In this document: positions 26,209 through 52,433 of the stretch, piece by piece
Numbering within the stretch: the first letter of the stretch is position 1
Layout: each line of letters opens with the position of its first letter
DNA from: an uncultured virus (IMG/VR IMGVR_UViG_3300037560_000199)
Taxonomy: Duplodnaviria; Heunggongvirae; Uroviricota; Caudoviricetes
DNA: 64,000 nt
Direction: 5' to 3' (one strand)
Virus record (IMG/VR): IMGVR_UViG_3300037560_000199
The notes under the pieces: model-generated
What the model saw: only the letters and a program-made list of their open reading frames with translations
Databases searched by the model: none
What the model was told of the DNA's origin: nothing
Translations under genes and position numbers: made by a program

Positions 26209-26383
26209 AGACGACTTTCTGAAAACGGCTCCGCAGCCTCCCATAGTGGCGCAGTTCAACGCGGAGAGCGGCGACTGGGAGATTCTGGTCCAAGATCAGT
26301 GGGTCAGTATCTCCCATCTCATCGACTCCCTGATCGAGATGCGCACCATCTTGGAAGCGGAAGTGAAAGGCACATTGCCGTGA
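26201..26383 (+). CDS. Hypothetical protein
   Basis: Overlap coupling. Confidence 0.5.
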   Translation: MPEDDFLKTAPQPPIVAQFNAESGDWEILVQDQWVSISHLIDSLIEMRTILEAEVKGTLP

Positions 26384-26703
26384 GGGATCTCTACTACATG
26401 TATCCGAAGGCTCATCACTCAATGTTTTTACGAACCAAGCAGAGTATCGAAGGGGACTGCATCACCTACGAGCTGAGAGTAGCGCGTGCACTCATGGAGG
26501 ACATGCGCGACATCACGAAGTTCGAGGGATGGTTCAATGTTCGGGGGATGTACTTTCGAGAGCCTTTCGACGCTATCGTTGACTGGGTTGAGCTTCAGCC
26601 TGAGGGGCTCGCCATGCAGCTTCTGAGGCTGGCGTACATTGCAGCTCGACACGAGGAGGGACCATACGGTGAACCGGAGGAGCTTTCTAAAGACACTGAT
26701 TAG
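26380..26703 (+). CDS. Hypothetical protein
   Basis: GTGA coupling. Confidence 0.55.
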   Translation: MRDLYYMYPKAHHSMFLRTKQSIEGDCITYELRVARALMEDMRDITKFEGWFNVRGMYFREPFDAIVDWVELQPEGLAMQLLRLAYIAARHEEGPYGEPEELSKDTD

Positions 26704-26878
26704 TGCAGCGGGTGCAGTTGCTGCTGCTCCCTACGTGCCAGCGATCATTCGCGAGCCAGTGCGTCAATGGGGTGAGCGACAGCAGGCAATGATCGATGCA
26801 CTCGCTGCCAGCATGCTCCAGACCAAAGAGGTGATGACTGCCAACGTGCTGAACCGTGCCTTCGGAGATCCCGATTGA
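26669..26878 (+). CDS. 69-aa twin-arginine-signal protein with capsid-like C-terminal segment
   Basis: GAGGAGG RBS; MNRRSFLK plus hydrophobic stretch; C-terminal LAASMLQTKEVMTANVLNRAF. Confidence 0.75.
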   Translation: MNRRSFLKTLISAAGAVAAAPYVPAIIREPVRQWGERQQAMIDALAASMLQTKEVMTANVLNRAFGDPD

Positions 26879-27048
26879 CCCACTACCTCTGGATCGCAGC
26901 TCACTTTACTCGTTGGTATTTGTGGGGTGCTCTGATTTGGATTTTCGCCTATCCAGAGACTGGATTTTGGACTGCCCTCACCCTGACCCTCATCGTAGCC
27001 GGAATCGAGATTAAATACCTAAATCCCCGCCACTGGACCGTTAATTGA
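26875..27048 (+). CDS. 57-aa membrane protein
   Basis: TTGA overlap; two hydrophobic segments; not in ORF track. Confidence 0.45.
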   Translation: MTHYLWIAAHFTRWYLWGALIWIFAYPETGFWTALTLTLIVAGIEIKYLNPRHWTVN

Positions 27049-27192: not shown

Positions 27193-27231
27193 GGAATGAC
27201 GGTGGTCGCTCTTTAACAGATGGAGAATCAT

Positions 27232-28014
27232 ATGAAAGTGGAATCGAACACGTCGGATATTCCGACAGCGTTTCTGAGGACAGTCTTCGCCAAGGTGCAC
27301 AACCACCTCAAGAAGTCGGAAGGTCACCTCCGTAGCTGGAAGTACTTGAAGGTCACCGTGAGACAGTCCCCAACTAAGAGAGGTTGTTCGGGCTATGCCT
27401 ACTACAACACTGGACCGATCACGTTGACACTTGCTCGTCGTGAGGTTGTCTTTGACGACAAGGTGTATCCGATCCTGACGACTCGAAAGATCGCGTGGAT
27501 CTTCTATCACGAGGTGATGCATGTGTACGGTTACCGGCACAAGCAGTACAGCGACATTCCTAAGGAGGAACTCGATGCTCTCTGTGCTGATTGGCCCGAG
27601 CATCCACCACGGATCGAGAAGAAGTCGAAGCCGAGAGTGGATCATGTAGCGAAGCGAGCTGCGAGTATCGATGCTCGAATCGAGCAATGGGGGACGAAGC
27701 TCAAGCGAGCTGAGAATGCCCTCAAGAAACTCAAGACGCAGAAGAGCTACTACGACAAGAAGCTCTCGGAACCTCGCCCTGAGCCGAAGCCTCGCAAGGC
27801 CGCGAAGCGACGTGGCACGATCTGGGAGGTGGCGAAGGAACACGGATGTCTTGTGGATCAGGAGTTCGGGGTTTACATGGTGTATCCACCCGATGCTCTC
27901 AATGACTCAGAGGACGATCCCTTCGGGGATGACCACTCCTGTGACAGTGCCAAGGAAGCACGCAGGCGCGTGATGGTCTATGCTAGTCTGGCAGAGCCCT
28001 CCCCCGGAGGGTGA
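27232..28014 (+). CDS. Zinc metallopeptidase-like protein (HExxHxxGxxH) with coiled coil
   Basis: HEVMHVYGYRH; GGAG RBS. Confidence 0.7.
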   Translation: MKVESNTSDIPTAFLRTVFAKVHNHLKKSEGHLRSWKYLKVTVRQSPTKRGCSGYAYYNTGPITLTLARREVVFDDKVYPILTTRKIAWIFYHEVMHVYGYRHKQYSDIPKEELDALCADWPEHPPRIEKKSKPRVDHVAKRAASIDARIEQWGTKLKRAENALKKLKTQKSYYDKKLSEPRPEPKPRKAAKRRGTIWEVAKEHGCLVDQEFGVYMVYPPDALNDSEDDPFGDDHSCDSAKEARRRVMVYASLAEPSPGG

Positions 28015-28031
28015 GACACGAAGACGGATCT

Positions 28032-28059
28032 TGGGGCTCCTTGTGAGCCCCATTTTTTT
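28032..28059 (+). terminator. Rho-independent terminator
   Basis: TGGGGCTC-cttgt-GAGCCCCA followed by T7. Confidence 0.85.
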
Positions 28060-28095
28060 GCGCCTATACTGCCGCCCCGTCGAATAGGACCTTCG

Positions 28096-29691
28096 ATGGC
28101 ACAGATCGTCAGCCTCAATTTTGGACTCGTACACCATCCCCCGGAATTCGATTACGATTTCGACTGGGGCGATCTCGATGAGGATATCAAAGCCCAGCTC
28201 CCCGCTGACACGGGTGAAGTCATCCAGATGTTCAGCGAGGAAGAGCTGCATCTCATTCGCTGGCGCATCTGCTGGAAGCGCATGGCGCGGCAGAAGCAGA
28301 TCCCCCCGGAAGTCTTCGAGTCGATGGAGAAGTCGATCTGGCTCATCCGTTCTGGTCGGGGATTCGGCAAGACGTTGACGGGAGCCAACTGGTTGGGCAT
28401 CGAGGCATCCCTTTACGCTTCGTACTACGCAGTCATCTCACCGACACACGACGACGTGCGCTACACCTGCTTTGAAGGTCCAACGGGACTGCTCGCATGT
28501 ATCCCCCCGAAGCTGATCGCAGACCGTAACCAAGCACTTCCCTCCATTACCTTGTGGAACGGCTCGATCATTCGTGGCTTCGCGGGGGATACTCCCGAGC
28601 GCTTGCGGGGACCCCAGCATGCCAAGATCTGGTGCGACGAGATCGCATCGTGGAAGTACCCGCAGGAGGCATGGGACAACCTGAGCTTTGGCCTGCGTCT
28701 GGGCAACAAGCCTCAGATCTGTGTGACAGGGACACCGAAGCCCACTCCCTTCGTGCGTCGGTTGGTGAGTGATAAACGTACAGTCGATGTGGTGGGCAGC
28801 ACCTACGAGAACCGGGCGAATTTGACGGAGTACTTCTTCGACAGCATCGCCAAGTACGAGGGCACGCGAGTCGGTCGCCAGGAGATTCGAGGCGAGCTGC
28901 TGGACCCGGAAGAGGAAGGCTTCGTCAAGCGCAGTCAGTGGAGGCTCTGGCCTCACAAGAAGTCACTCCCGAAGTTCAGCTTCATCGTGCTGTCCATCGA
29001 CCCCGCGTTCACCGAGAAGAACTTCGACAAGCGCAAGCAGGAGAATGATCCGACAGCCTGCAGTGCGTGGGGTGTGTTCATGATCCCGCGTCAGGACAAG
29101 GCACCGCTCCCGCATGTCATGCTGCTCGATGCGTGGGAAGATTGGCTTGGCTTCCCGGCTCTCGTGCGCCGGATCAAGAAGGAGAAAATGTACACCTATG
29201 GTGATGTTGACGAGCCCTACCTGAGGCCAAAGATCATCCCGAAGAGTCAGCGAGCCAAGCACCAGGGGAGAGTGCCTGACATCATTTTGATCGAGGAGAA
29301 GGCATCTGGAATCAGCCTGAGACAGCAGCTTGCGGAAGAGAATATCTTGACGCACGGCTACAATCCGGGTAATGAAGATAAGCTAACGCGACTACATTAC
29401 GTGTCGCCTATGTTTGCTGCCGGTCGAGTCTGGGCTGTTGAATCGGAAATCAACCCTGGCGCGTTCAATACGCACCACGATCCCCTCATCTCCCAAGTCT
29501 GCTCCTACGTGGGTCCCGGCTCTACTGAGCGGGACGATTTACTCGACACTGCCACTCAGGGACTGCGACTCCTTATGGATCAGTTCTTTGGCCCGTTCAC
29601 CGTCGTGGACAACGTCGAGGCACGCGAGAGAGCCAAAGCGAAGCAGATTGCGGAGCGTCGGTTGAAGAAGCGGAACAACCCTTATGACTGA
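28096..29691 (+). CDS. terL: Terminase large subunit
   Basis: GRGFGKT, RLRGPQ, WCDE, TGTPK, SIDPA nuclease motif, IEEKASG, DDLLD. Confidence 0.95.
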   Translation: MAQIVSLNFGLVHHPPEFDYDFDWGDLDEDIKAQLPADTGEVIQMFSEEELHLIRWRICWKRMARQKQIPPEVFESMEKSIWLIRSGRGFGKTLTGANWLGIEASLYASYYAVISPTHDDVRYTCFEGPTGLLACIPPKLIADRNQALPSITLWNGSIIRGFAGDTPERLRGPQHAKIWCDEIASWKYPQEAWDNLSFGLRLGNKPQICVTGTPKPTPFVRRLVSDKRTVDVVGSTYENRANLTEYFFDSIAKYEGTRVGRQEIRGELLDPEEEGFVKRSQWRLWPHKKSLPKFSFIVLSIDPAFTEKNFDKRKQENDPTACSAWGVFMIPRQDKAPLPHVMLLDAWEDWLGFPALVRRIKKEKMYTYGDVDEPYLRPKIIPKSQRAKHQGRVPDIILIEEKASGISLRQQLAEENILTHGYNPGNEDKLTRLHYVSPMFAAGRVWAVESEINPGAFNTHHDPLISQVCSYVGPGSTERDDLLDTATQGLRLLMDQFFGPFTVVDNVEARERAKAKQIAERRLKKRNNPYD

Positions 29692-33153: not shown

Positions 33154-33363
33154 ATGCCCGCCGACGTAGACATCGTGTTGAAGAAGTTCCTGACGGCAGT
33201 GAAGCAGGAACAAGCCGGATGCCTCGCGTTGCTCGCGACACCGAAAGATAAGAGTGCTTTCGGATACGGTGAAGCATGCGGCATTTTGCAAGGCTTGAAT
33301 CGCGCCGAGCGGCTGTTCGAGAGATTGATTGGGGAAGAGGAAGACGAGACCGAAGATGGCTGA
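33154..33363 (+). CDS. Hypothetical protein
   Basis: Y...CG..QGL pattern; common position before phage GroES. Confidence 0.65.
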   Translation: MPADVDIVLKKFLTAVKQEQAGCLALLATPKDKSAFGYGEACGILQGLNRAERLFERLIGEEEDETEDG

Positions 33364-33856
33364 GGAAAATCCAATTGTTCTACCTGAGAATTACTCCTTA
33401 GAGGAGAGAGGCAGGACTATCGGTGGTCGGACGAAGTTGCAATACGACAGCATCGAGCAGGCGTTTCCCGAAGTGGAACCCGGCTTGAGACCTTTTGGGT
33501 CACGTGTTCTCGTGCAAAAACGTACGCCCAGAACAGTCACTGAGGGTGGGATCATTGTTCCAATTGAATCCCAGGAGACTGAGTTCTGGAACACTCAAGT
33601 CGCTAAAGTCATTACTCTTGGACCCGGTGCTTTCAAGAACCGCGATACCCTGGCTGAGTGGCCGGAAGGAGACTGGTGCCAGGAGGGTGCGATTGTGCGC
33701 GTGCCAAAATACGGTGGCGACAGGTGGTTCGTAACTCTCCCTGGTGCTACGTCTATGCGAATGGGCGTAGACCAAGCGTGCTTCGTTATCTACAACGATC
33801 TGGACATGATAGGCCAGATTACTTGTGACCCGATGGAGGTAATCGCATACCTGTAA
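33356..33856 (+). CDS. groES: GroES/Cpn10-like co-chaperonin
   Basis: PFGSRVLV...TEGGIIVP...V..LGPG...KYGG...NDLDMIG. Confidence 0.85.
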   Translation: MAEENPIVLPENYSLEERGRTIGGRTKLQYDSIEQAFPEVEPGLRPFGSRVLVQKRTPRTVTEGGIIVPIESQETEFWNTQVAKVITLGPGAFKNRDTLAEWPEGDWCQEGAIVRVPKYGGDRWFVTLPGATSMRMGVDQACFVIYNDLDMIGQITCDPMEVIAYL

Positions 33857-36071: not shown

Positions 36072-37001
36072 ATGGCTGTCCCAATGCGATCAACTGACTT
36101 CCGGTCGATTGTTGAACCGATTCTCAACGAGACGTTCGACGGAATTTATAACCAGCGTGCGGACGAGTGGAAGGGAGTTTTCACGGAGCGACAGGGTACG
36201 CCCCGGAGCTACCACGAAGAGCCCGTCCTGTTCGGTTTCAACGCTGCGCCCGAGATGCCGGATGGCACCCCGGTCACGTTCGATGCTGGCGGGGTGCTGT
36301 TCATTCAGCGCTACGTCTATCGCGTCTTCGGTCTCGCGTTTGCGATGACGAAGGTGCTGGTCGAAGACGGTGACCACATCCGCATCGGCACGATCTACTC
36401 CGAGCACCTTGCTCAGTCGATGATCGAGACGAAGGAAACGCTCTGCGCCAACATCTTCAACCGCGCCTTCAACGGTGCGTTTGTCGGTGGCGACGGTGTA
36501 GCGTTGAACGTCACGAACCATCCGATTGCGCCAGGAGGCTCAGCGGGTGGTGTGTTCTCGAACCTACTGACGACTGCTGCGGCTCTGTCGCAAACGTCGC
36601 TTGAGCAGTTGCTCATTCAGATCCGCAACGCTGTTGACAACAACGGCAAGCGCATCCGACTGTCGCCGCTCAAGATCGTCACGGGTCCGAGCCAAGTCTT
36701 CCAGGCTGAGGTGCTGTTGAAGTCGGTCCTGCGTGCAGGCACGGCGAACAACGACATCAACCCAATCCTCTCGATGGGTCTGCTCGACCAAGGTCAAGCG
36801 AACCTGTCCCGTATCACCTCCACGACTGCATGGTGGGTCCAGACGGACGCTCCTCGTGGTCTGCAGATGATGATGCGTCGGGGACTGGAGAAGAGCATGG
36901 AAGGCGACTTCGAGACGGACTCGATGCGCTACAAGTCCACCGAGCGATACATTCCAGACTGGACCGACCCTCGTACGGTCTTCGGTACGCCTGGACTGTA
37001 G
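36072..37001 (+). CDS. Major capsid protein (HK97 fold, inferred)
   Basis: 309 aa; SM..TKE...N..N.AF, GGDG..L....HP, NNDINP, DFET, D.R...G..G. Confidence 0.9.
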   Translation: MAVPMRSTDFRSIVEPILNETFDGIYNQRADEWKGVFTERQGTPRSYHEEPVLFGFNAAPEMPDGTPVTFDAGGVLFIQRYVYRVFGLAFAMTKVLVEDGDHIRIGTIYSEHLAQSMIETKETLCANIFNRAFNGAFVGGDGVALNVTNHPIAPGGSAGGVFSNLLTTAAALSQTSLEQLLIQIRNAVDNNGKRIRLSPLKIVTGPSQVFQAEVLLKSVLRAGTANNDINPILSMGLLDQGQANLSRITSTTAWWVQTDAPRGLQMMMRRGLEKSMEGDFETDSMRYKSTERYIPDWTDPRTVFGTPGL

Positions 37002-44809: not shown

Positions 44810-47800
44810 ATGGCTAACGTACAAATCTCAGATCTGCCCTTCGCCATCACACCTCTGATAGGTGCGACTACGTTCTTCGAGGTGGAAGCTACAGAGGGTG
44901 GAGTGGTTGTCAGTCGAAGAGTCGCTGCAGACGATCTCGTCGTCAGTGCGACCACTCTCTTTATCAATGGCACCAGTACGGATGACCCATCAATTGGTGG
45001 GGGAGTATTCGATGGACAGCTTCTCTGGCGCAATGTCAATTTGCAGCAAACGGGTGTCTTTGGTTTCGACCCTGCAGGCGATAACTTCATCTGGTCGAAC
45101 GATGCGGAAGGTGGCTTCCACCAGATTGCGATCCGAGATGGAACGGTGTTGGTTGAGACGATTGCTGCAGCTGCAGGTGGACTGCTTGCTAACAACCTGC
45201 TCACGGGTGCAGGGCTCGAACGTGTTCTGACGGCTTCGGACTTCTTCGCAGGTCCGGTGGGAACGAGCGTCGATGATCCAACAGCACCGGGTTCCTTCAA
45301 TGCGCAACTTCAGTGGCAGAACGCACTTGCTGATCCGCTAGCCAATCTCGGATTCAATGCGGATGCTGTCTTCGCTATCGACAGTGTCATACATGGTGGA
45401 GTTGTCAGGATACGCGGCGAAGATCTTTTAGGTGTTCTGAACACCCTGTTTGAAGGCGATCCCGGTAATGGTGTGCTGCTCTTCTGGGATGGTGCTCTCA
45501 GATTCTTCACGTCGTTCACAGGCATCAATGTTCAAGGAGATGGTGTAGGTAACCCCGCAACGGGTGCTGCTCAGGATGTCGATCTTACCTTGAGCAACTC
45601 ATTAGGTGCGTTTGCAGCTCAGTTGGGCTTCCCTACCAGCACCACTGATCTCCGACTTAAAAATTTCGTTCACGGAGGTACAGTTGAACTCATTGGTGAA
45701 GATGCAGGTGGTGTCGAGCGCAATATTTTCGTAGCTGATCCCGATGGTATTGCGCAGATTTTCAACGTGGGTGTTGCAACGCTACGCACGACCACTGCTG
45801 CAGCAGGTGGTGCAGAAGCCAATAACACGTTAACCGGGGCGGGCTTCGAGCGTGTGCTCACAGCGTCGGATGCTTTCACTGGAATCATTACAGGCTCCAG
45901 CACTGATAGCCCTGAAACCCCCGGTGGAACGTGGGACGGTCTTCTACGATTCGAGAACGCTAACAATTTACAAACGGCGCGAGTTGGTTTCGAGCCAGCA
46001 GGCGATACGTTTTTTGTTCAGCCTACGGTAGAAGGTGGACGTCTGATCTTAGGGGGTAGAAGCCCTGGAGCACCGGGTGTTCTTCGTGAAGCTATCGTCA
46101 TTGACTTCGACACTGGTGCACTGCCTGCCGGTTCAACGCGCTTCTTCGAGGCGAATGGTACTGCTGAGAAGATGCGGTTGGACACCGGGGTTGACGCTGT
46201 AACGGAGGTTGCCAATGTTGGGAACAATCCGGCAAGTGGACTCGCACAACATGGTCAGTTCCGGGTAACGAACAACTCTGCTCAAGTTGCAGGTGAATTC
46301 GGATTCCCTGCGACGGGGGGTCTTTCGACTACCATGCGGGTGAAGAACTTCGTGCATGGTGGTCCTGTCGAACTCGTTGGTGAGAATGCTGCAGGCACCG
46401 AGCGTATTCTCTTCTTCTACGATCCTGACAATTCGGGTCCGATCATCTTTGGACCGCTCGACAACAACCCTGCGACAGATGCCTCGATCCAAGATACACG
46501 GCTGACATTCAGGAACCCGTCTGCGCAAACCATCTGGCAGATAGGATTCCTCGAAGGCACCAATGATTTCTCTCTTAAGCTCTTCCAAGACACTGGAACT
46601 CTGCGGCTTCGAGGAAGTAGTGCAGCTAGTGGCGATATTCTCCTGGCTATCTTTGATCCTGTTGCTGATGCAAAACTCTTCCAGGCTGGAGCGGAGGTCT
46701 TTCGTACGCTAGCTGCAGCATCAGGTGGAGCACAGGCAAACAACACGTTAACGGGTGCAGGATTCGAGCGAGTACTCACGACTGGCGACCTGACATCGGT
46801 AGCAACTAGTGGTGTATCTCCGTTCGACATCGCTTCAGGTGCTGCTGCTGATCCGACGCTTACGCTCACCGAGAACGTCACGCTCTCGACTACGTTCTTG
46901 CATGACGTCAGCACCGACATCACGCTCATCCGAAACGAAGTTAACTCCGGGCATCTTGAACTTCGTGCCAGAAGTAGTGCTGGCGTTGATCGACGGTTGC
47001 TTACGGGGGACCCGGATAACCAAACGATTCTGTATTGGCAGGATAACCTTCGCGTTCGGACTGCGCAGTTCGGCACTGAGTTCATCGGGAGTTCAGCGAC
47101 TGGAAGCACACTGCGTTTCTTTGGAAGCAATGGAACTACGTTGGTTGGGTTGATGACCATCGGTGGAGGTGGTGTCAATGAGATTCAACTAATCCCCAAT
47201 GCTACTAATGACGGTCAAGCCTTCCGTTTTCTTCTTTCTGATGCTGGTGGCGTTGCACGCGAGATGCTTCGGATGGACCCCGATAATAGCGTTGATCTTA
47301 GTTTCGCTGGGGTTGTGACCGCAGAAACAGTGGCGGAAGGCTTTGGTGCTCGATCAGCAGCGGCTGATCCAGTTTTTCAGTTGATTGAAAACATTAGTCT
47401 TCGTGGAACGTGGCGGCATGTTATAGCGACCGGAGTCTCCGAACTGAGAAACCGAGAGATTTCAGGACATGTACAGATTCGTGCCACTGATCTTTTGTCT
47501 GCTGATGTCCCGCTGATTACTGGGGACCCTGATGGTCCTGTTGAGCTGTATCACGATGCTTTGCTTCGTGCGTATACCAATTCAGTCGGTCTGACCTTAC
47601 GCGGAGACGGTGCGGACTCTGGCAACTTCACGATGGAAGATACGGGTGTCGCTACGATCTTCCACATTGATGTGACCGCTGGGATCACTCAGATTCGTAG
47701 CTTCATCAACGCTAATGTGATCAATATCGTAGGCGACGATACCGGAGCCGTCACTCGAAACCTGATCACGATGGACCCCGATGGTGCCAACAGCATCGAG

Positions 47801-48055
47801 TTATATGAAGTAGGTGTCTCAGTTGCGCGTACAGCTACGGCAGCACTCGGTGGTCTCTTTGCCAACAACACTTTAACGGGTGCTGGGTTCGAGCGAGTGC
47901 TGACCACAGCAGATCGTCGGAGCGCAGAGATCTATACACCGACTAACGTCTCAACGGATCGTGCCTACGATGCTAATGCAACGACGTTGGATGAACTTGC
48001 CGATGTACTCGGCACGTTGATTGCCGATCTACAAGCAATTGATGTGATTCAATAA
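44810..48055 (+). CDS. Long tail fibre with internal repeats
   Basis: MANVQISDLP N-terminus; 4 x ANN.LTGAG.ERVLT; repeated DPD units; C-terminal helix. Confidence 0.8.
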   Translation: MANVQISDLPFAITPLIGATTFFEVEATEGGVVVSRRVAADDLVVSATTLFINGTSTDDPSIGGGVFDGQLLWRNVNLQQTGVFGFDPAGDNFIWSNDAEGGFHQIAIRDGTVLVETIAAAAGGLLANNLLTGAGLERVLTASDFFAGPVGTSVDDPTAPGSFNAQLQWQNALADPLANLGFNADAVFAIDSVIHGGVVRIRGEDLLGVLNTLFEGDPGNGVLLFWDGALRFFTSFTGINVQGDGVGNPATGAAQDVDLTLSNSLGAFAAQLGFPTSTTDLRLKNFVHGGTVELIGEDAGGVERNIFVADPDGIAQIFNVGVATLRTTTAAAGGAEANNTLTGAGFERVLTASDAFTGIITGSSTDSPETPGGTWDGLLRFENANNLQTARVGFEPAGDTFFVQPTVEGGRLILGGRSPGAPGVLREAIVIDFDTGALPAGSTRFFEANGTAEKMRLDTGVDAVTEVANVGNNPASGLAQHGQFRVTNNSAQVAGEFGFPATGGLSTTMRVKNFVHGGPVELVGENAAGTERILFFYDPDNSGPIIFGPLDNNPATDASIQDTRLTFRNPSAQTIWQIGFLEGTNDFSLKLFQDTGTLRLRGSSAASGDILLAIFDPVADAKLFQAGAEVFRTLAAASGGAQANNTLTGAGFERVLTTGDLTSVATSGVSPFDIASGAAADPTLTLTENVTLSTTFLHDVSTDITLIRNEVNSGHLELRARSSAGVDRRLLTGDPDNQTILYWQDNLRVRTAQFGTEFIGSSATGSTLRFFGSNGTTLVGLMTIGGGGVNEIQLIPNATNDGQAFRFLLSDAGGVAREMLRMDPDNSVDLSFAGVVTAETVAEGFGARSAAADPVFQLIENISLRGTWRHVIATGVSELRNREISGHVQIRATDLLSADVPLITGDPDGPVELYHDALLRAYTNSVGLTLRGDGADSGNFTMEDTGVATIFHIDVTAGITQIRSFINANVINIVGDDTGAVTRNLITMDPDGANSIELYEVGVSVARTATAALGGLFANNTLTGAGFERVLTTADRRSAEIYTPTNVSTDRAYDANATTLDELADVLGTLIADLQAIDVIQ

Positions 48056-49755: not shown

Positions 49756-50400
49756 ATGGCAGAGACACTGACCTTTGACTCGTTGCAGGATGACCTGCGC
49801 AAGTACTTGGAGCGGGGCACGTCCGTCGATCCCACGGTGTTCTCTGAGCTTCCTCGTCTGATCAACCTCGCAGAGAGAAATCTTGCGAACTCGTTGAAGA
49901 TCCTGGGCTTCATAAACGTCGTGACGGATGTGATGACGATAGGTCAGTCGGTGATTCCCAAGCCTGATCGATGGAGGGACACGATCTCGATCAACTTCGG
50001 GGTAGGTGCAACGCAGATACGCACACCATTGTTTCCTCGTGTGTATGAGTACCTGCGTCGGTATTGGCCCGATGAGGATCTCACGGACCAGCCGAAGTTC
50101 TATGCTGACTACGACTACTTCAACTGGTTGATTGCACCCTCAGCGGATTTCGCTTATCCGTTCGAGGTCAATTATTGGGAGCTGCCTGCATTGTTGGATG
50201 GCGCAAACCAGACAAACTGGACAACAGACTTTGCCCCCAATGCTCTGTTGCATGCGTCACTTCTCCAGGCAACTCCTTTTTTGAACAACGATGAGCGCAT
50301 CCCTGTGTGGCAAGGTATCTATGACAGGGACGTGATGATCCTCGAACAGCAGGATGTGCGGCGCATCATCGACAGACAAGTCACGAGGGAGAGTGTCTGA
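49756..50400 (+). CDS. Head-to-tail adaptor (tail tubular protein A-like)
   Basis: L...L..YL.R...I.LAE...P.FYA...AP..D...NW....AP.ALL...L. Confidence 0.75.
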   Translation: MAETLTFDSLQDDLRKYLERGTSVDPTVFSELPRLINLAERNLANSLKILGFINVVTDVMTIGQSVIPKPDRWRDTISINFGVGATQIRTPLFPRVYEYLRRYWPDEDLTDQPKFYADYDYFNWLIAPSADFAYPFEVNYWELPALLDGANQTNWTTDFAPNALLHASLLQATPFLNNDERIPVWQGIYDRDVMILEQQDVRRIIDRQVTRESV

Positions 50401-52433
50401 TGGCATACGCAGAAGTTTTTGGTGGGCAGCTGATCTTCCCGTCGCAGACAAGTTACCTCGCGATCACGACTGCTGTAGACGTCACGTTGCAATGGCCCAT
50501 TGAGCAGCAGATTGCGGGTATCGATGTAGTCGCTGACTTCATGGATATCGACGCGACGGTGCCTGCGATCAACATCGACATGCCGGATGCACGGCAGTCA
50601 GGCACAGGTCAGAAAGTATTGTTCAACAACATTGGTGCCAACCTGTACACGGTGCGTGACGATGCAGGAGGCACGATCTCGACGGTCGCACCGGGTGAGC
50701 AGTTTGTGTTCACCCTCACGGACAATACGACAGCTGCAGGAACGTGGACTTTCTTTCAGATGGGCTCAGCGGTCTCTACTGCTACAGCGGGTGCGTTGAC
50801 TGGTGCAGGCATCAAAGCGATCTCCACCACGCTGAACCAGATGATCGAGTCCGATGTCGAGGCAGCGACTCCGTTCACAGTGGTCGATGCGGATCGAGCG
50901 AAGTGTTTGATCTACACCATCGGCACAGGTACGTGCAACCTGCCCTCTCCAGCTGCAGTCGGTGACGACTGGTTCTTCATGCTGAGAAACTCTGGAACGG
51001 GCACACTCAACATCGTGCCTCCTTCTGGAGTGATCGATGATTCTGCGAGTATCAACCTCGATCCCAACGACTCGTGTTTCATCTTCACGGACGGCACCGA
51101 CTTCTTCACTGTTGGATTGAGCACAGGCTCTGTCATCGCGTTCGACTTCGTCTCGATTGCGATCCCAGGCTCAGGAGACTTCACACTCTCTGGTGCAAAC
51201 CTCAACCGGATCTCGTATCGATTCACTGGGCTGCTTACTGGCGACCGCAAGATCGTCGTCCCTGGCACTACGCAGCAATACTGGGTGGACAACCAAACGA
51301 CAGGTGCTTTCGCACTGACGGTTGGTACATCTGCACAAGTGGGTGAACCAGAGATTACTCAAGGACTCGCTGAGATCTTCTACTGCGATGGTGTCGATGT
51401 AGTCAATGCGGTGTCGGCAGTCGCGGTCTCGGTGCCTGTCACCATCGCTCAAGGTGGTACGAGTGCGACGACTGTAGGTGGGGCTCAGACATCCCTGCAA
51501 GTGCCACCGACATCACGGGATATGATCGCAGGTGTGGCGATGAGCGGGGGAGGCGATCTGTCAGCGGATCGTACCTTTGATTACGCTGGTGGGCTCGATG
51601 ATCAGTCTGATGTCACACTCACTGCGCCAGTAACAGGTGGTGTCCTTTTCAAGAGCGCAGCGGATTGGCTCGACACCGATGCGATCTTTATTGATCCAGC
51701 AGCTGAGGTTTCACTCAAATTTGCTGGGGCGCAGGTTGTTGAAACCATTGCGTTGGGCTTGTCCGTCGATATTCAGGCTGACCAAGTCAACCTCATACGA
51801 GTTCTCAACTCCATCGGTGGTGTTCGGTTGTTGATTACGAACAGCACGGGTCTAGCGCAGATCACTCAGACGGATAACTTGGGCGCAGCTCAGGACGCTT
51901 GGATTCAGATGGCACGAGGTGGCTCAGTCACCTTGATTGATGCTGGGCTGAACGCACTGCGTACAACGACACCGGGTGCTGGTGGAGTCACTGCAAACAA
52001 TACGCTCACTGGTGGTGGCTTCGAGCGTGTTCTGACCACGAGCGATCTCGTCACAGGAATCACAGGTACATTCACGTCGCCTCTTACTGCTCTTAGTGGC
52101 AATACCAATTCGGTGATCACCCAAGCTCACCTTCTCGGTGGTTTGCCTGACATCGTGCAACTCATCATGGAATGCACTACAGGCGAACACGGCTATTCCG
52201 TTGGTGATCAGGTGGTGCTGAACCCAACAGAAAATGCGTTAGACGAAGGAGCAGGAGTATCTCAGTGCTACAACATGGTCGCTTACGACGGGACTAACAT
52301 CTATTCGACAGTGGGTTTCGAGGCTGGAGGTGGGGCACTAGGAACCCAAGTACCTGACCGATCAAGCCCAGGAGTACCCGCGTTAGCCACACCTACGAGT
52401 TGGAGCTTCTTGGTTAAGGCGATTAGATTCTGA
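50400..52433 (+). CDS. Tail fibre/tail protein
   Basis: P.TIAQGGT.AT, SGGGDLSADRT fibre motifs; shares ANNTLTG.GFERVLTT repeat. Confidence 0.7.
   Translation: MAYAEVFGGQLIFPSQTSYLAITTAVDVTLQWPIEQQIAGIDVVADFMDIDATVPAINIDMPDARQSGTGQKVLFNNIGANLYTVRDDAGGTISTVAPGEQFVFTLTDNTTAAGTWTFFQMGSAVSTATAGALTGAGIKAISTTLNQMIESDVEAATPFTVVDADRAKCLIYTIGTGTCNLPSPAAVGDDWFFMLRNSGTGTLNIVPPSGVIDDSASINLDPNDSCFIFTDGTDFFTVGLSTGSVIAFDFVSIAIPGSGDFTLSGANLNRISYRFTGLLTGDRKIVVPGTTQQYWVDNQTTGAFALTVGTSAQVGEPEITQGLAEIFYCDGVDVVNAVSAVAVSVPVTIAQGGTSATTVGGAQTSLQVPPTSRDMIAGVAMSGGGDLSADRTFDYAGGLDDQSDVTLTAPVTGGVLFKSAADWLDTDAIFIDPAAEVSLKFAGAQVVETIALGLSVDIQADQVNLIRVLNSIGGVRLLITNSTGLAQITQTDNLGAAQDAWIQMARGGSVTLIDAGLNALRTTTPGAGGVTANNTLTGGGFERVLTTSDLVTGITGTFTSPLTALSGNTNSVITQAHLLGGLPDIVQLIMECTTGEHGYSVGDQVVLNPTENALDEGAGVSQCYNMVAYDGTNIYSTVGFEAGGGALGTQVPDRSSPGVPALATPTSWSFLVKAIRF

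What the first reader, a model, noticed from the sequence alone, without database searches (positions are those of the whole stretch)
26669..26878. Tat-signal mini-protein carrying a copy of the major capsid spine helix
Seen: a 69-aa ORF with strong RBS starts MNRRSFLK plus a hydrophobic stretch (Tat consensus SRRxFLK). It ends LAASMLQTKEVMTANVLNRAF (26801-26863), which aligns ungapped to the capsid segment LAQSMIETKETLCANIFNRAF (36408-36470) with 13 of 21 identities. DNA is diverged, so conservation looks protein-level. Inference: the segment is the HK97-fold spine helix. The peptide may be a membrane-tethered or exported capsid mimic: a decoy for capsid-sensing defences, an assembly modulator or an exclusion factor.
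Basis: partly seen in the sequence, partly recalled or inferred. Interest (0 to 1): 0.8.

Follow-up and report, generated by a model that had tools for sequence, protein, structure and literature searches.

The report
Export-tagged mini-protein copying capsid spine helix
An uncultured marine-sediment phage carries a small, selected, optional gene that joins a bacterial twin-arginine (Tat) export leader to an old copy of the most conserved helix of the phage head-shell protein; it belongs to a large gene family that I found in no paper, and its job is untested.

Summary
ORF 26669-26878 (+, GTG start, GAGGAGG 9 nt upstream) encodes 69 aa starting MNRRSFLK. Residues 45-65 match capsid residues 113-133 at 13 of 21 positions; 0 of 2000 shuffles reach that score. 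An AlphaFold2 capsid model (pLDDT 85.9, HK97 fold by Foldseek) puts this segment in the long helix 102-130, the spine helix.

The gene is real. 30 close homologues exist, dN/dS is 0.31, and the NCBIfam Tat model scores above its cut-off.

It belongs to a large family: 142 clusters at 50% identity. In my 127-row alignment the two arginines are the only invariant columns. The family profile aligns to capsid residues 81-140 (hhalign 99.3%, E 1.7e-20). At least 31 members carry further capsid pieces, 23 of them out of native order. A few carry tail-fibre-like pieces or a piece of another capsid family.

The gene is optional. It sits 1-2.5 kb upstream of the terminase gene in most related uncultured phages examined, and I found it in no cultured phage.

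Function is untested. My best guess is a capsid-surface mimic taken to the Tat machinery or envelope as a decoy or trap. I found no paper describing it. Earlier unchecked notes of this scan report the same design in other phages.

The parts
26653..26659 (+). Shine-Dalgarno-like GAGGAGG, 9 nt before the GTG start
   Evidence: Read directly from the sequence. The same upstream stretch is kept in close homologues (translated upstream context).
26669..26878 (+). Mini-protein gene, 69 codons plus stop
   Evidence: 30 homologues at 44-100% identity. dN/dS 0.31 over 7 genes; 18 synonymous against 3 non-synonymous differences to L092.
26672..26692 (+). Twin-arginine motif NRRSFLK (residues 2-8)
   Evidence: TIGR01409 scores 21.1 bits against cut-off 16.7, and 28 of 30 members match. 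RR is present in 127 of 127 rows of A3, and F at +3 in 120 of 127.
26693..26743 (+). Uncharged h-region TLISAAGAVAAAPYVPA (residues 9-25). A possible signal-peptidase site after VPA is read by eye only.
   Evidence: the family's uncharged stretch has median length 14 and mean Kyte-Doolittle value 1.66. No SignalP or TatP was available.
26744..26797 (+). Variable linker (residues 26-43)
   Evidence: Alignment A1 shows insertions and deletions here. dN/dS 0.26.
26798..26866 (+). Capsid spine-helix copy (residues 44-66), ALAASMLQTKEVMTANVLNRAFG
   Evidence: The invariant A1 columns A44 L45 S48 M49 T52 E54 L61 F65 all lie here.
36072..37001 (+). Major capsid protein gene (309 aa, HK97 fold, Mu gpT-like / Pfam Phage_capsid_4 family)
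   Evidence: AlphaFold2 model with pLDDT 85.9. Foldseek matches HK97, T5 and encapsulin shells at probability 1.00.
36375..36461 (+). Predicted spine helix of the capsid protein (residues 102-130). The segment matched by the mini-protein is 36408-36470.
   Evidence: DSSP on the model gives H102-130. Invariant or near-invariant capsid columns are L113 A114 S116 M117 T120 K121 E122 A126 N127 N130 R131 A132 F133.
26875..27048 (+). Downstream 57-aa ORF with two hydrophobic stretches. Its TTG start overlaps the mini-protein's stop, so it may be translationally coupled.
   Evidence: 84% identical copy in the same place in L094 and L095; a 40% identical relative about 2 kb downstream in L101 and L102; absent after the mini-gene in L002 and L093.
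28096..29691 (+). Large terminase gene, the conserved landmark 1-2.5 kb downstream of the mini-gene slot
   Evidence: Pfam Terminase_6N and Terminase_6C. Synteny.

Best explanation
SHOWN. This is a real accessory gene under purifying selection, in an uncultured lytic-type phage whose DNA is held by marine-sediment metagenome runs. The product has a canonical Tat-type leader: an RR motif, then about 17 uncharged residues. After a short linker comes a diverged homologue of the capsid spine helix. It is the shortest form of a large family whose common unit is a copy of capsid residues 81-140 (beta-strand, loop, spine helix). Relatives add further pieces in shuffled order: N-arm, E-loop, post-helix strand and C-terminal strands. 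In the helix, the family keeps the same residues that capsid proteins keep.

INFERRED. The leader takes the peptide to the TatBC receptor in the inner membrane. The capsid-like part then either crosses to the periplasm or stays at the membrane on an uncleaved leader. There it imitates the conserved capsid surface and captures a factor that normally recognises that surface. The factor would be a host defence sensor of capsid protein, or a virion or assembly protein of a competing phage. Capture would hold that factor at the Tat machinery or the envelope, or carry it out by Tat 'hitchhiking'.

My confidence that the gene, the leader and the capsid homology are real is about 0.9. My confidence in the decoy or trap mechanism is about 0.35.
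For: Gene reality:
- Ribosome-binding site and start codon.
- 30 homologues.
- dN/dS is 0.31 overall, 0.145 in the leader and 0.28 in the helix.

Tat leader:
- TIGR01409 scores above its cut-off, and 28 of 30 members match.
- R3 and R4 are the only invariant columns among 127 diverse members.
- The consensus is x-R-R-x-F-[LIF]-[KRQ].
- The h-region has median length 14 uncharged residues and mean hydropathy 1.66.

Capsid homology:
- hhalign gives probability 99.3%, E 1.7e-20, family columns 43-99 to capsid residues 81-140.
- A capsid HMM hits 164 of 167 family proteins at 5 bits or more, against 0 of 835 shuffled ones.
- tblastn of three members against 50,697 phage records hits only capsid genes.
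- The consensus is the same position by position in the helix.

Spine helix.

Accessory, fast-changing character, which is typical of conflict genes:
- Different architectures fill the same slot upstream of the terminase gene.
- The family profile finds nothing but the capsid gene in 5 of 5 cultured relatives searched.
- The cognate capsid helix is identical in four genomes while the mini-protein copies differ.
- 23 of 31 multi-piece members are out of native order.

Mimicry beyond one protein:
- P0089 matches the N-terminus of another capsid family (phrog_9953, E 2e-6).
- P0054 and P0121 match tail or tail-fibre PHROGs.

Precedents:
- Capsid protein directly activates the bacterial immune protein CapRel (PMC9712102, title and start of abstract in the search listing).
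- Fusions carrying fragments of essential viral genes were proposed as decoys in Bodo saltans virus (PMC5871332, passage read).
- Tat co-export of signal-less partners, the hitchhiker mechanism (PMC4273604 and PMC6719666, search listing with start of abstract).
Against: - No binding partner is known, and nothing here shows export.
- The Pfam TAT_signal score is below its gathering score.
- A decoy that binds a sensor could trigger it rather than silence it.
- A single helix cut out of its fold may be unstructured.
- The helix is nearer to foreign capsid clades than to the phage's own. This fits an old mobile gene, or a weapon against other phages, as well as it fits a decoy for a host sensor.
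- The family was retrieved with a profile that contains the leader, so leaderless or Sec-type versions could have been missed. 'Always Tat' is therefore partly by construction.
- 8 of 167 family proteins lack an RR motif in the first 40 residues. Two are truncated, and P0089 has KR.
Confidence: 0.35

Rival explanations
1. Envelope-acting exclusion or lysis-timing factor. The peptide is truly exported and works in the periplasm. It might bind proteins that a superinfecting related phage ejects into the envelope, which in the virion contact the inner capsid surface. Or it might work with the neighbouring small membrane protein to control lysis.
For: - Tat leader.
- A coupled downstream 57-aa ORF with two hydrophobic stretches, conserved in some relatives.
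- The position beside the terminase genes, where T7-type phages keep holin and spanin genes (recalled, not from a call).
- Accessory and fast-evolving.
Against: - The 57-aa ORF is not a constant partner: it is absent after the gene in L002 and L093, and the neighbours in L003 are different.
- Only 2 of 127 members have a lipobox-like motif.
- Capsid shells do not enter the periplasm.
- No ejection protein is known to bind this helix.
Confidence: 0.2
2. Dominant-negative or modulating capsid fragment. The capsid pieces bind folding or assembling capsid protein, or the scaffold protein that docks on the inner capsid surface. That protein could be the phage's own or, more likely, a co-infecting relative's. 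The leader then pins the complex to the membrane. This resembles the way satellite proteins CpmB and Rcm interfere with helper capsid assembly.
For: - The same residues are conserved in the helix as in capsid proteins, on all faces.
- The extra pieces are all capsid elements.
- The helix resembles foreign capsid clades more than the phage's own.
- Precedent: Rcm and CpmB bind the capsid protein and compete with the scaffold (PMC12409344, abstract read).
Against: - Nothing explains why the twin arginines are the most conserved feature if the action is cytoplasmic.
- The phage would risk poisoning its own assembly.
- CpmB and Rcm mimic the scaffold, not the capsid protein.
Confidence: 0.15
3. 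Membrane tether for the phage's own head assembly or packaging. The uncleaved leader anchors a capsid-like handle that recruits capsid or terminase proteins to the inner membrane. In some relatives the handle also carries the C-terminal tail of the small protein encoded just before the terminase gene.
For: - Eight family members end in the motif that in L104 ends the 74-aa ORF directly upstream of the terminase gene.
- The gene lies in the head and packaging region.
Against: - The gene is missing from cultured relatives with 76% identical capsid proteins, so it is not needed for assembly.
- Its content varies widely.
- With positive charges at the N-terminus, the C-terminal part should face the periplasm. 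This rests on the positive-inside rule, which is established knowledge and not a call.
Confidence: 0.07
4. Tat jamming. A Tat leader on a fragment that cannot fold blocks the TatBC receptor and shuts down host Tat export. In this case the passenger's identity would be secondary.
For: - The leader is invariant and the passengers are varied and shuffled.
- Tat quality control senses unfolded substrates (PMC9436932, search listing with start of abstract).
Against: The passenger is not arbitrary. The capsid-helix residues are kept across 127 members whose mean column identity is 12%, and dN/dS in the helix is 0.28.
Confidence: 0.05
5. Chance similarity, or a dead remnant of a capsid gene fragment.
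For: The matched stretch in this window is only 21-23 residues, and the pairwise DNA is diverged.
Against: - Shuffle controls.
- Profile-profile E 1.7e-20.
- Purifying selection.
- 142 clusters.
Confidence: 0.02

Closest known systems
Twin-arginine (Tat) signal peptides on small proteins, including small 'carrier' subunits that co-export signal-less partners (hitchhiker pairs such as PaoABC or the FAD-glucose dehydrogenase small subunit)
   Same: - N-terminal x-R-R-x-F-L-K motif.
- Moderately hydrophobic h-region.
- Small size.
- TIGR01409 scores above its cut-off.
- The hitchhiker idea comes from PMC4273604 and PMC6719666 (search listing with start of abstract).
   Different: - Encoded by a phage.
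- The passenger is a copy of a capsid protein segment, not a redox subunit.
- No partner gene has been identified.
- Export has not been shown.
HK97-fold major capsid proteins of the Mu gpT-like / Pfam Phage_capsid_4 (PF25209) family
   Same: The post-leader part is homologous to capsid residues 81-140. In this window only to about 109-134. The same conserved residues are kept.
   Different: It has 44 post-leader residues against 309. It cannot form the fold or a shell, and it carries an export leader that no capsid protein in my searches has.
Ankyrin-repeat fusion proteins of Bodo saltans virus that carry fragments of essential viral genes (proposed decoys; PMC5871332, passage read)
   Same: A virus encodes many fast-evolving small fusions of a targeting module to fragments of its own essential proteins. 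Decoy mimicry is the proposed role.
   Different: - The host is a eukaryote and the virus is a giant virus.
- The targeting module is ankyrin repeats, not a Tat leader.
- The fragments are catalytic domains.
- That role is also untested.
Satellite-encoded capsid assembly remodellers CpmB and Rcm (PMC12409344, abstract read)
   Same: Small helical proteins that imitate one partner of the capsid-scaffold interface and so interfere with phage head assembly.
   Different: - They mimic the scaffold protein, not the capsid protein.
- They are cytoplasmic and have no export leader.
- They are encoded by satellites, not by the phage itself.
Capsid-derived triggers of bacterial immunity: CapRel sensing a major capsid protein (PMC9712102, search listing with start of abstract), and the Gol peptide of T4 gp23 sensed by Lit (recalled)
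   Same: A short conserved region of an HK97-fold capsid protein can be the molecular pattern recognised by a host factor.
   Different: Those are parts of the full capsid protein and activate defence. Here a free copy is made by the phage and tagged for Tat.

Membership tests
Tat signal peptide (NCBIfam TIGR01409 / Pfam PF10518) | Twin-arginine consensus S/T-R-R-x-F-L-K near the N-terminus | tested here: met
   NRRSFLK at residues 2-8. RR in 127 of 127 aligned family members, F at +3 in 120 of 127, L/I/F at +4 in 125 of 127.
Tat signal peptide (NCBIfam TIGR01409 / Pfam PF10518) | Score above the curated cut-off of the family model | tested here: inconclusive
   TIGR01409 scores 21.1 bits, above its cut-off of 16.7, and 28 of 30 members match. 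Pfam PF10518 scores 17.6 bits, below its gathering score of 22.7.
Tat signal peptide (NCBIfam TIGR01409 / Pfam PF10518) | Moderately hydrophobic h-region of about 12-20 residues followed by a c-region with a peptidase site | tested here: inconclusive
   The h-region criterion is met: 17 uncharged residues here, family median 14, mean hydropathy 1.66. The cleavage site (VPA then I) is read by eye only. No SignalP or TatP was available.
Tat signal peptide (NCBIfam TIGR01409 / Pfam PF10518) | Tat-dependent transport | not testable with these tools
   Needs reporter fusions in tat+ and tat-deleted cells, and an RR-to-KK mutant.
HK97-fold major capsid protein (Phage_capsid_4 / Mu gpT-like) | Full fold: N-arm, E-loop, P domain with spine helix, A domain | tested here: not met
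   Only the helix segment is present. The capsid HMM hit covers about positions 100-131. The whole protein is 69 aa.
HK97-fold major capsid protein (Phage_capsid_4 / Mu gpT-like) | Sequence homology to the family | tested here: met
   Local homology only: hhalign 99.3%, E 1.7e-20, to capsid residues 81-140; BLASTP 33.1 bits.
Tat hitchhiker carrier subunit | A signal-less partner that binds the carrier before export, usually encoded next to it | not tested
   No candidate partner was identified, so no carrier-partner pair was tested. Neighbouring genes are not constant.
Phage lysis proteins (i-spanin, o-spanin, antiholin) | i-spanin: N-terminal membrane helix, long periplasmic coiled coil, and a paired lipoprotein o-spanin. 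Antiholin: a releasable signal-anchor and a holin-binding domain. | tested here: not met
   - The post-leader part is 44 aa and homologous to capsid protein.
- Only 2 of 127 members have a lipobox-like motif.
- There is no PHROG match.
- Holin binding could not be tested.

The most novel reading that the evidence does not exclude
Many unrelated tailed phages use one general trick. Short copies of the conserved parts of their virion proteins are fused to a Tat leader. Earlier unchecked notes of this scan add portal and terminase pieces. The copies would bind host pattern-recognition defence proteins, or a rival phage's assembly partners, in the cytoplasm. The Tat machinery would then pull the captured protein to the membrane or out of the cell by hitchhiking. 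That would be a counter-defence by expulsion.
Probability: 0.15. Interest if true: 0.95.

Novelty: categorically new. Interest (0 to 1): 0.78.

Why it matters
If the function is confirmed, this would be a new class of phage accessory gene: a bacterial export leader joined to mimics of the phage's own conserved structural proteins.

It would give a direct handle on which parts of capsid proteins are 'seen' by host or rival factors. It would also show phages using the Tat pathway, which I found described in no paper for this purpose.

The family is large: 142 clusters at 50% identity for this capsid type alone. It is testable with simple genetics, for example RR-to-KK mutants, reporter fusions, and expression in trans against cultured relatives such as Caulobacter phage RW.

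Even without a known function, the family offers a natural collection of minimal capsid fragments kept by selection.

Tried and rejected
- **Complex prediction, capsid protein with mini-protein residues 26-69:** the verdict was 'no answer' (score 0.00, controls not run, partner fold uncertain). This is not evidence either way.
- **First capsid model from a shallow alignment (A2, 22 rows):** pLDDT was 52.4, too poor to use. I replaced it with the A4 model.
- **Sequence search of solved structures with the capsid profile:** only weak matches (E about 0.7) to Mu gpT-type capsid chains.
- **Expression:** no RNA holder was listed. 24 runs were listed, all DNA by record.
- **Window's own assembly:** not held.
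- **The genome search on L095, L105, L114, L101 and L103:** records not held. Cognate capsid helices were read from the loci instead.
- **Genome-contig scan:** only 2 hits, both covering residues 44-65 only, in two metagenome-assembled genomes. No mini-protein was found in species genomes.
- **P0089 (leader plus a piece of another capsid family):** no relative in viral contigs, in the protein collection or in cultured phages. It stands as a single observation.
- **ESM Atlas:** best scores were 0.87-0.88, below the level that counts. They are leads only.
- **PHROGs and Pfam:** no family for the mini-protein apart from the Tat signal.
- **Tail-fibre-like and C-terminal motifs:** a regex search of the window and all loci for the tail-fibre-like motif found nothing. 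The C-terminal GEGARR motif was found only in L104.
- **Papers:** searches gave no paper on Tat-leader capsid-fragment genes. One search failed on term length and was not repeated.
- **Frameshift fusion with the upstream ORF (26299-26703, 35-nt overlap):** considered and set aside, because the gene has its own ribosome-binding site and a conserved start.
Full report
**1. The observation**

The ORF at 26669-26878 on the + strand begins with GTG. GAGGAGG lies 9 nt upstream. The ORF encodes 69 residues starting MNRRSFLK.

Residues 45-65 align without gaps to residues 113-133 of the 309-aa protein encoded at 36072-37001, with 13 of 21 identities. BLASTP gives 13 of 23 identities, 33.1 bits and pairwise E 1e-7.

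The match is not chance:
- The Smith-Waterman score is 70. Shuffles give mean 26.7 and sd 4.4, and 0 of 2000 shuffles of either protein reach 70 (Gumbel p about 1e-6).
- A six-frame scan of the whole window with the 21-mer gives the capsid segment 70 and the next best non-self hit 27.
- In an all-against-all BLASTP of 577 ORFs of the window, the pair has E 3e-5.

The DNA of the two segments shares 39 of 63 bases and only 10 of 21 third positions. The conservation is therefore at protein level.

**2. The partner is the major capsid protein, and the segment is its spine helix**

The 309-aa protein is 76% identical to a protein of Caulobacter phage RW. It is 35-41% identical to annotated major capsid proteins of Roseobacter, Pelagibacter, Synechococcus and Planktothrix phages. 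Its relatives carry Pfam PF25209 and PF10124.

An AlphaFold2 model built on 43 sequences has pLDDT 85.9 and pTM 0.81. Its elements are:
- N-arm helix 7-28.
- E-loop strands 47-54 and 74-82.
- Strand 84-92.
- One long helix 102-130.
- Late strands 264-278 and 285-297.

Foldseek matches encapsulin shells, HK97 Head II, T5 pb8 and other capsids at probability 1.00. In this fold the single long helix before the A domain is the spine helix, which is established knowledge of the HK97 fold. An earlier model from a shallow alignment was too poor to use.

**3. The gene is real**

A word-indexed search found 30 proteins of 47-95 aa at 44-100% identity. In their alignment, the invariant columns are A44 L45 S48 M49 T52 E54 L61 F65. 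All of them lie in the capsid-like helix. The NRR.FLK motif is nearly invariant.

I computed pooled Nei-Gojobori values over seven genes for which I had DNA (window, L092, L093, L094, L096, L097, L002):

| Region | dN/dS |
|---|---|
| Whole gene | 0.31 |
| Leader | 0.145 |
| Linker | 0.26 |
| Helix | 0.28 |

The window's gene and L092 differ by 18 synonymous and 3 non-synonymous changes. There is no direct expression evidence, because no RNA run was listed.

**4. The leader is Tat-type**

- NCBIfam TIGR01409 scores 21.1 bits against a cut-off of 16.7, and 28 of 30 family members match; the two misses are N-terminally truncated.
- Pfam PF10518 scores 17.6 bits, below its gathering score of 22.7.
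- It is the only ORF of the window with such an N-terminus.

**5. A large family**

A profile of the 30 sequences was run against 1.84 billion cluster representatives. It found 142 proteins at E up to 0.001. Reading them gave this breakdown:
- Five are capsid proteins or leaderless capsid fragments (P0125, P0156, P0164, P0165, P0171).
- One is an unrelated 985-aa repeat protein (P0146).
- Five short ones lack a leader (P0073, P0088, P0134, P0147, P0170).
- The rest are proteins of 65-221 aa that start with a twin-arginine motif.

I aligned 127 sequences: the window's protein, P0015 and 125 others. I left out 16 of the 142: the eleven above, plus P0089, P0112, P0116, P0121 and P0139. In this alignment:
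- R3 and R4 are the only invariant columns.
- F6, L45, A46, T52 and E54 are at least 90% conserved.
- Mean column identity is 12%.

Over the larger set of 167 proteins, 159 have an RR motif in the first 40 residues. That set is all hits minus six, plus the window's and L003's proteins. The uncharged stretch after the motif has median length 14.

One caveat applies. The search profile contains the leader. Leaderless or Sec-type relatives would score near the threshold and may have been missed.

**6. Homology to the capsid protein at family level**

- hhalign of the 127-row family alignment against the 43-row capsid alignment gives probability 99.3% and E 1.7e-20. Family columns 43-99 align to capsid residues 81-140: strand, loop and spine helix.
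- A capsid HMM built from 17 capsid proteins hits 164 of 167 family proteins at 5 bits or more. It hits 0 of 835 shuffled versions.
- In the helix, the two families share the same consensus position by position: L, A, S, M, T, K, E, A, N, N, R, A, F.
- tblastn of the window's protein, P0035 and P0082 against 50,697 phage records hits only capsid genes. No record covers 80% of the query.

**7. Mosaics**

I classified the capsid HMM hits into pieces:

| Code | Capsid piece |
|---|---|
| A | N-arm |
| B | E-loop |
| C | strands 76-99 |
| D | spine helix |
| E | post-helix segment |
| F | A domain |
| H | C-terminal strands |

The counts are:

| Architecture | Members |
|---|---|
| D only | 99 |
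| C-D | 27 |
| E-D | 11 |
| D-A | 4 |
| B-D | 4 |
| D-E | 4 |
| C-D-E | 3 |
| H-D | 3 |
| D-H | 2 |
| Rarer combinations | 7 |

By separate HMM hits, 31 proteins have two or more pieces, and 23 of those are out of native order. Two examples were checked pairwise:
- L003:10001-10399 (132 aa) has the helix (25 bits) followed by the N-arm (32 bits, E 2e-6).
- P0030 has the post-helix segment (24 bits, E 2e-4) before the helix (31 bits).

Pieces that do not come from this capsid family also occur:
- P0089 has a KR leader much like the window's. It matches the N-terminus of another capsid family (phrog_9953, E 2e-6). It is a singleton.
- P0121 matches a tail-fibre PHROG (E 7.5e-4).
- The middle of P0054 matches tail and virion-protein PHROGs (E 1e-4 to 8e-3).

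Eight members end in a motif (SGEGARRSVG..SP..) that in locus L104 ends a separate 74-aa ORF. That ORF overlaps the mini-gene's stop and lies directly before the terminase gene.

**8. Context and distribution**

The gene lies 1-2.5 kb upstream of the large terminase gene, among small genes, in:
- the window;
- L001 (the same phage, 99-100% identical);
- L002, L093, L094/L095, L103 and L114.

In L104 the gene ends only about 0.2 kb before the terminase gene. The short helix-only form, the E-C-D form and a 147-aa multi-piece form all occupy this slot in phages whose terminases are 79-92% identical. In the complete 67-kb genome behind L003, the gene sits among replication genes instead.

The downstream 57-aa ORF with two hydrophobic stretches overlaps the stop codon here. 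It is kept in L094/L095 but not in L002 or L093.

The family profile finds only the capsid gene in 5 of 5 cultured relatives searched: RW, CRP-902, HTVC023P, DSL-LC04 and MinM2. Species genomes gave no mini-protein. IMG/VR gave 3 mini-protein loci among 78 loci; the other 75 were capsid genes.

In the four genomes where both genes are visible, the capsid helix is identical while the mini-protein's helix differs between them. The window's helix copy is 13 of 22 identical to its own capsid helix, but up to 18 of 22 identical to helices of distant capsid clades. So it is an old, independently evolving and probably mobile copy. It is not a recent duplicate of the resident capsid gene.

**9. What it most likely does**

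Three things are shown:
- The gene is selected, optional and fast-diversifying.
- It has a Tat-type leader whose twin arginines are its most conserved feature.
- Its passenger keeps the residues that capsid proteins keep.

Two inferences follow. Targeting to the Tat machinery is essential to the function. The passenger works by resembling the capsid element, because it preserves capsid-specific residues on all helix faces even where the rest of the fold is absent.

The reading I favour (about 0.35) is a mimic that captures a factor recognising this conserved capsid surface. The mimic would hold that factor at the membrane, or carry it out by Tat hitchhiking. The factor could be a host sensor. 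Capsid proteins are known immune triggers (PMC9712102, search listing with start of abstract). It could also be a protein of a rival phage.

Bodo saltans virus offers an analogy. Its fusions carrying fragments of essential viral genes were proposed as decoys (PMC5871332, passage read).

The rivals are:
- a truly periplasmic exclusion or lysis-timing role (0.2);
- dominant-negative interference with capsid assembly, compare CpmB and Rcm (PMC12409344, abstract) (0.15);
- a tether for the phage's own assembly (0.07);
- Tat jamming (0.05);
- chance or a relic (0.02).

The one complex prediction I could run gave no verdict and carries no weight.

**10. Novelty**

Full-text searches found no paper on phage genes that join a Tat leader to capsid fragments. 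Pfam, PHROGs and NCBIfam have no family for the passenger.

This scan's own earlier notes report the same design on other DNA. They describe it in soil, T4-like and crAss-like phages, with capsid, portal and terminase pieces. Those are unchecked AI notes. I did not test them, and they are not independent support. They do indicate that the design recurs widely.

Noticed in passing
window 33329-33856 (+): A 175-aa ORF in the head module has a Cpn10/GroES domain (Pfam E 1.4e-8). Caulobacter phage RW has an annotated co-chaperonin GroES in the same relative position. This may be a phage co-chaperonin for capsid folding.
   Followed up: partly
window 26875-27048 (+): A 57-aa ORF with two hydrophobic stretches. 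Its TTG start overlaps the mini-protein's stop. It has no PHROG or Pfam match. It is kept in L094/L095 (84%), and a 40% identical relative lies in L101/L102. It could be a holin-like or partner membrane protein.
   Followed up: partly
window 27220-28014 (+): A 264-aa ORF directly upstream of the large terminase gene, with no family match. It contains HEVMH (an HExxH-like motif, read by eye). It ends in a stretch that, by eye, resembles the GEGARR...SP tail motif seen in L104. It may be a small-terminase-like protein.
   Followed up: no
L104:1626-1850 (+): A 74-aa ORF overlaps the stop of the mini-gene and ends 3 nt before the terminase start. Its C-terminal motif (SGEGARRSVGVEGSPDRI) is found fused to the C-terminus of eight family members: P0031, P0037, P0068, P0073, P0075, P0094, P0099 and P0148.
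   Followed up: partly
proteins P0089, P0121, P0054 (metagenomic, no locus): Tat-type or KR leaders joined to pieces matching other virion proteins. P0089 matches the N-terminus of capsid family phrog_9953 (E 2e-6). P0121 matches tail-fibre phrog_11355 (E 7.5e-4). P0054 matches tail and virion-protein PHROGs.
   Followed up: partly
window 44810-48055 and 50400-52433 (+): Two large ORFs share several repeated segments of about 56-102 residues at 40-60% identity (E down to 1e-9). These are probably repeat domains of tail or fibre proteins.
   Followed up: no
window 28032-28070 (+): A terminator-like hairpin (8 pairs plus a T run) overlaps a promoter-like site, just upstream of the large terminase gene. 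These are consensus matches only, at about the rate seen in shuffles.
   Followed up: no
L135 (Caulobacter phage RW 57116-59918): The record annotates 'large terminase subunit' twice (GP095c and GP097c), with a SAM-dependent methyltransferase gene between them. The terminase gene looks split by an insertion.
   Followed up: no
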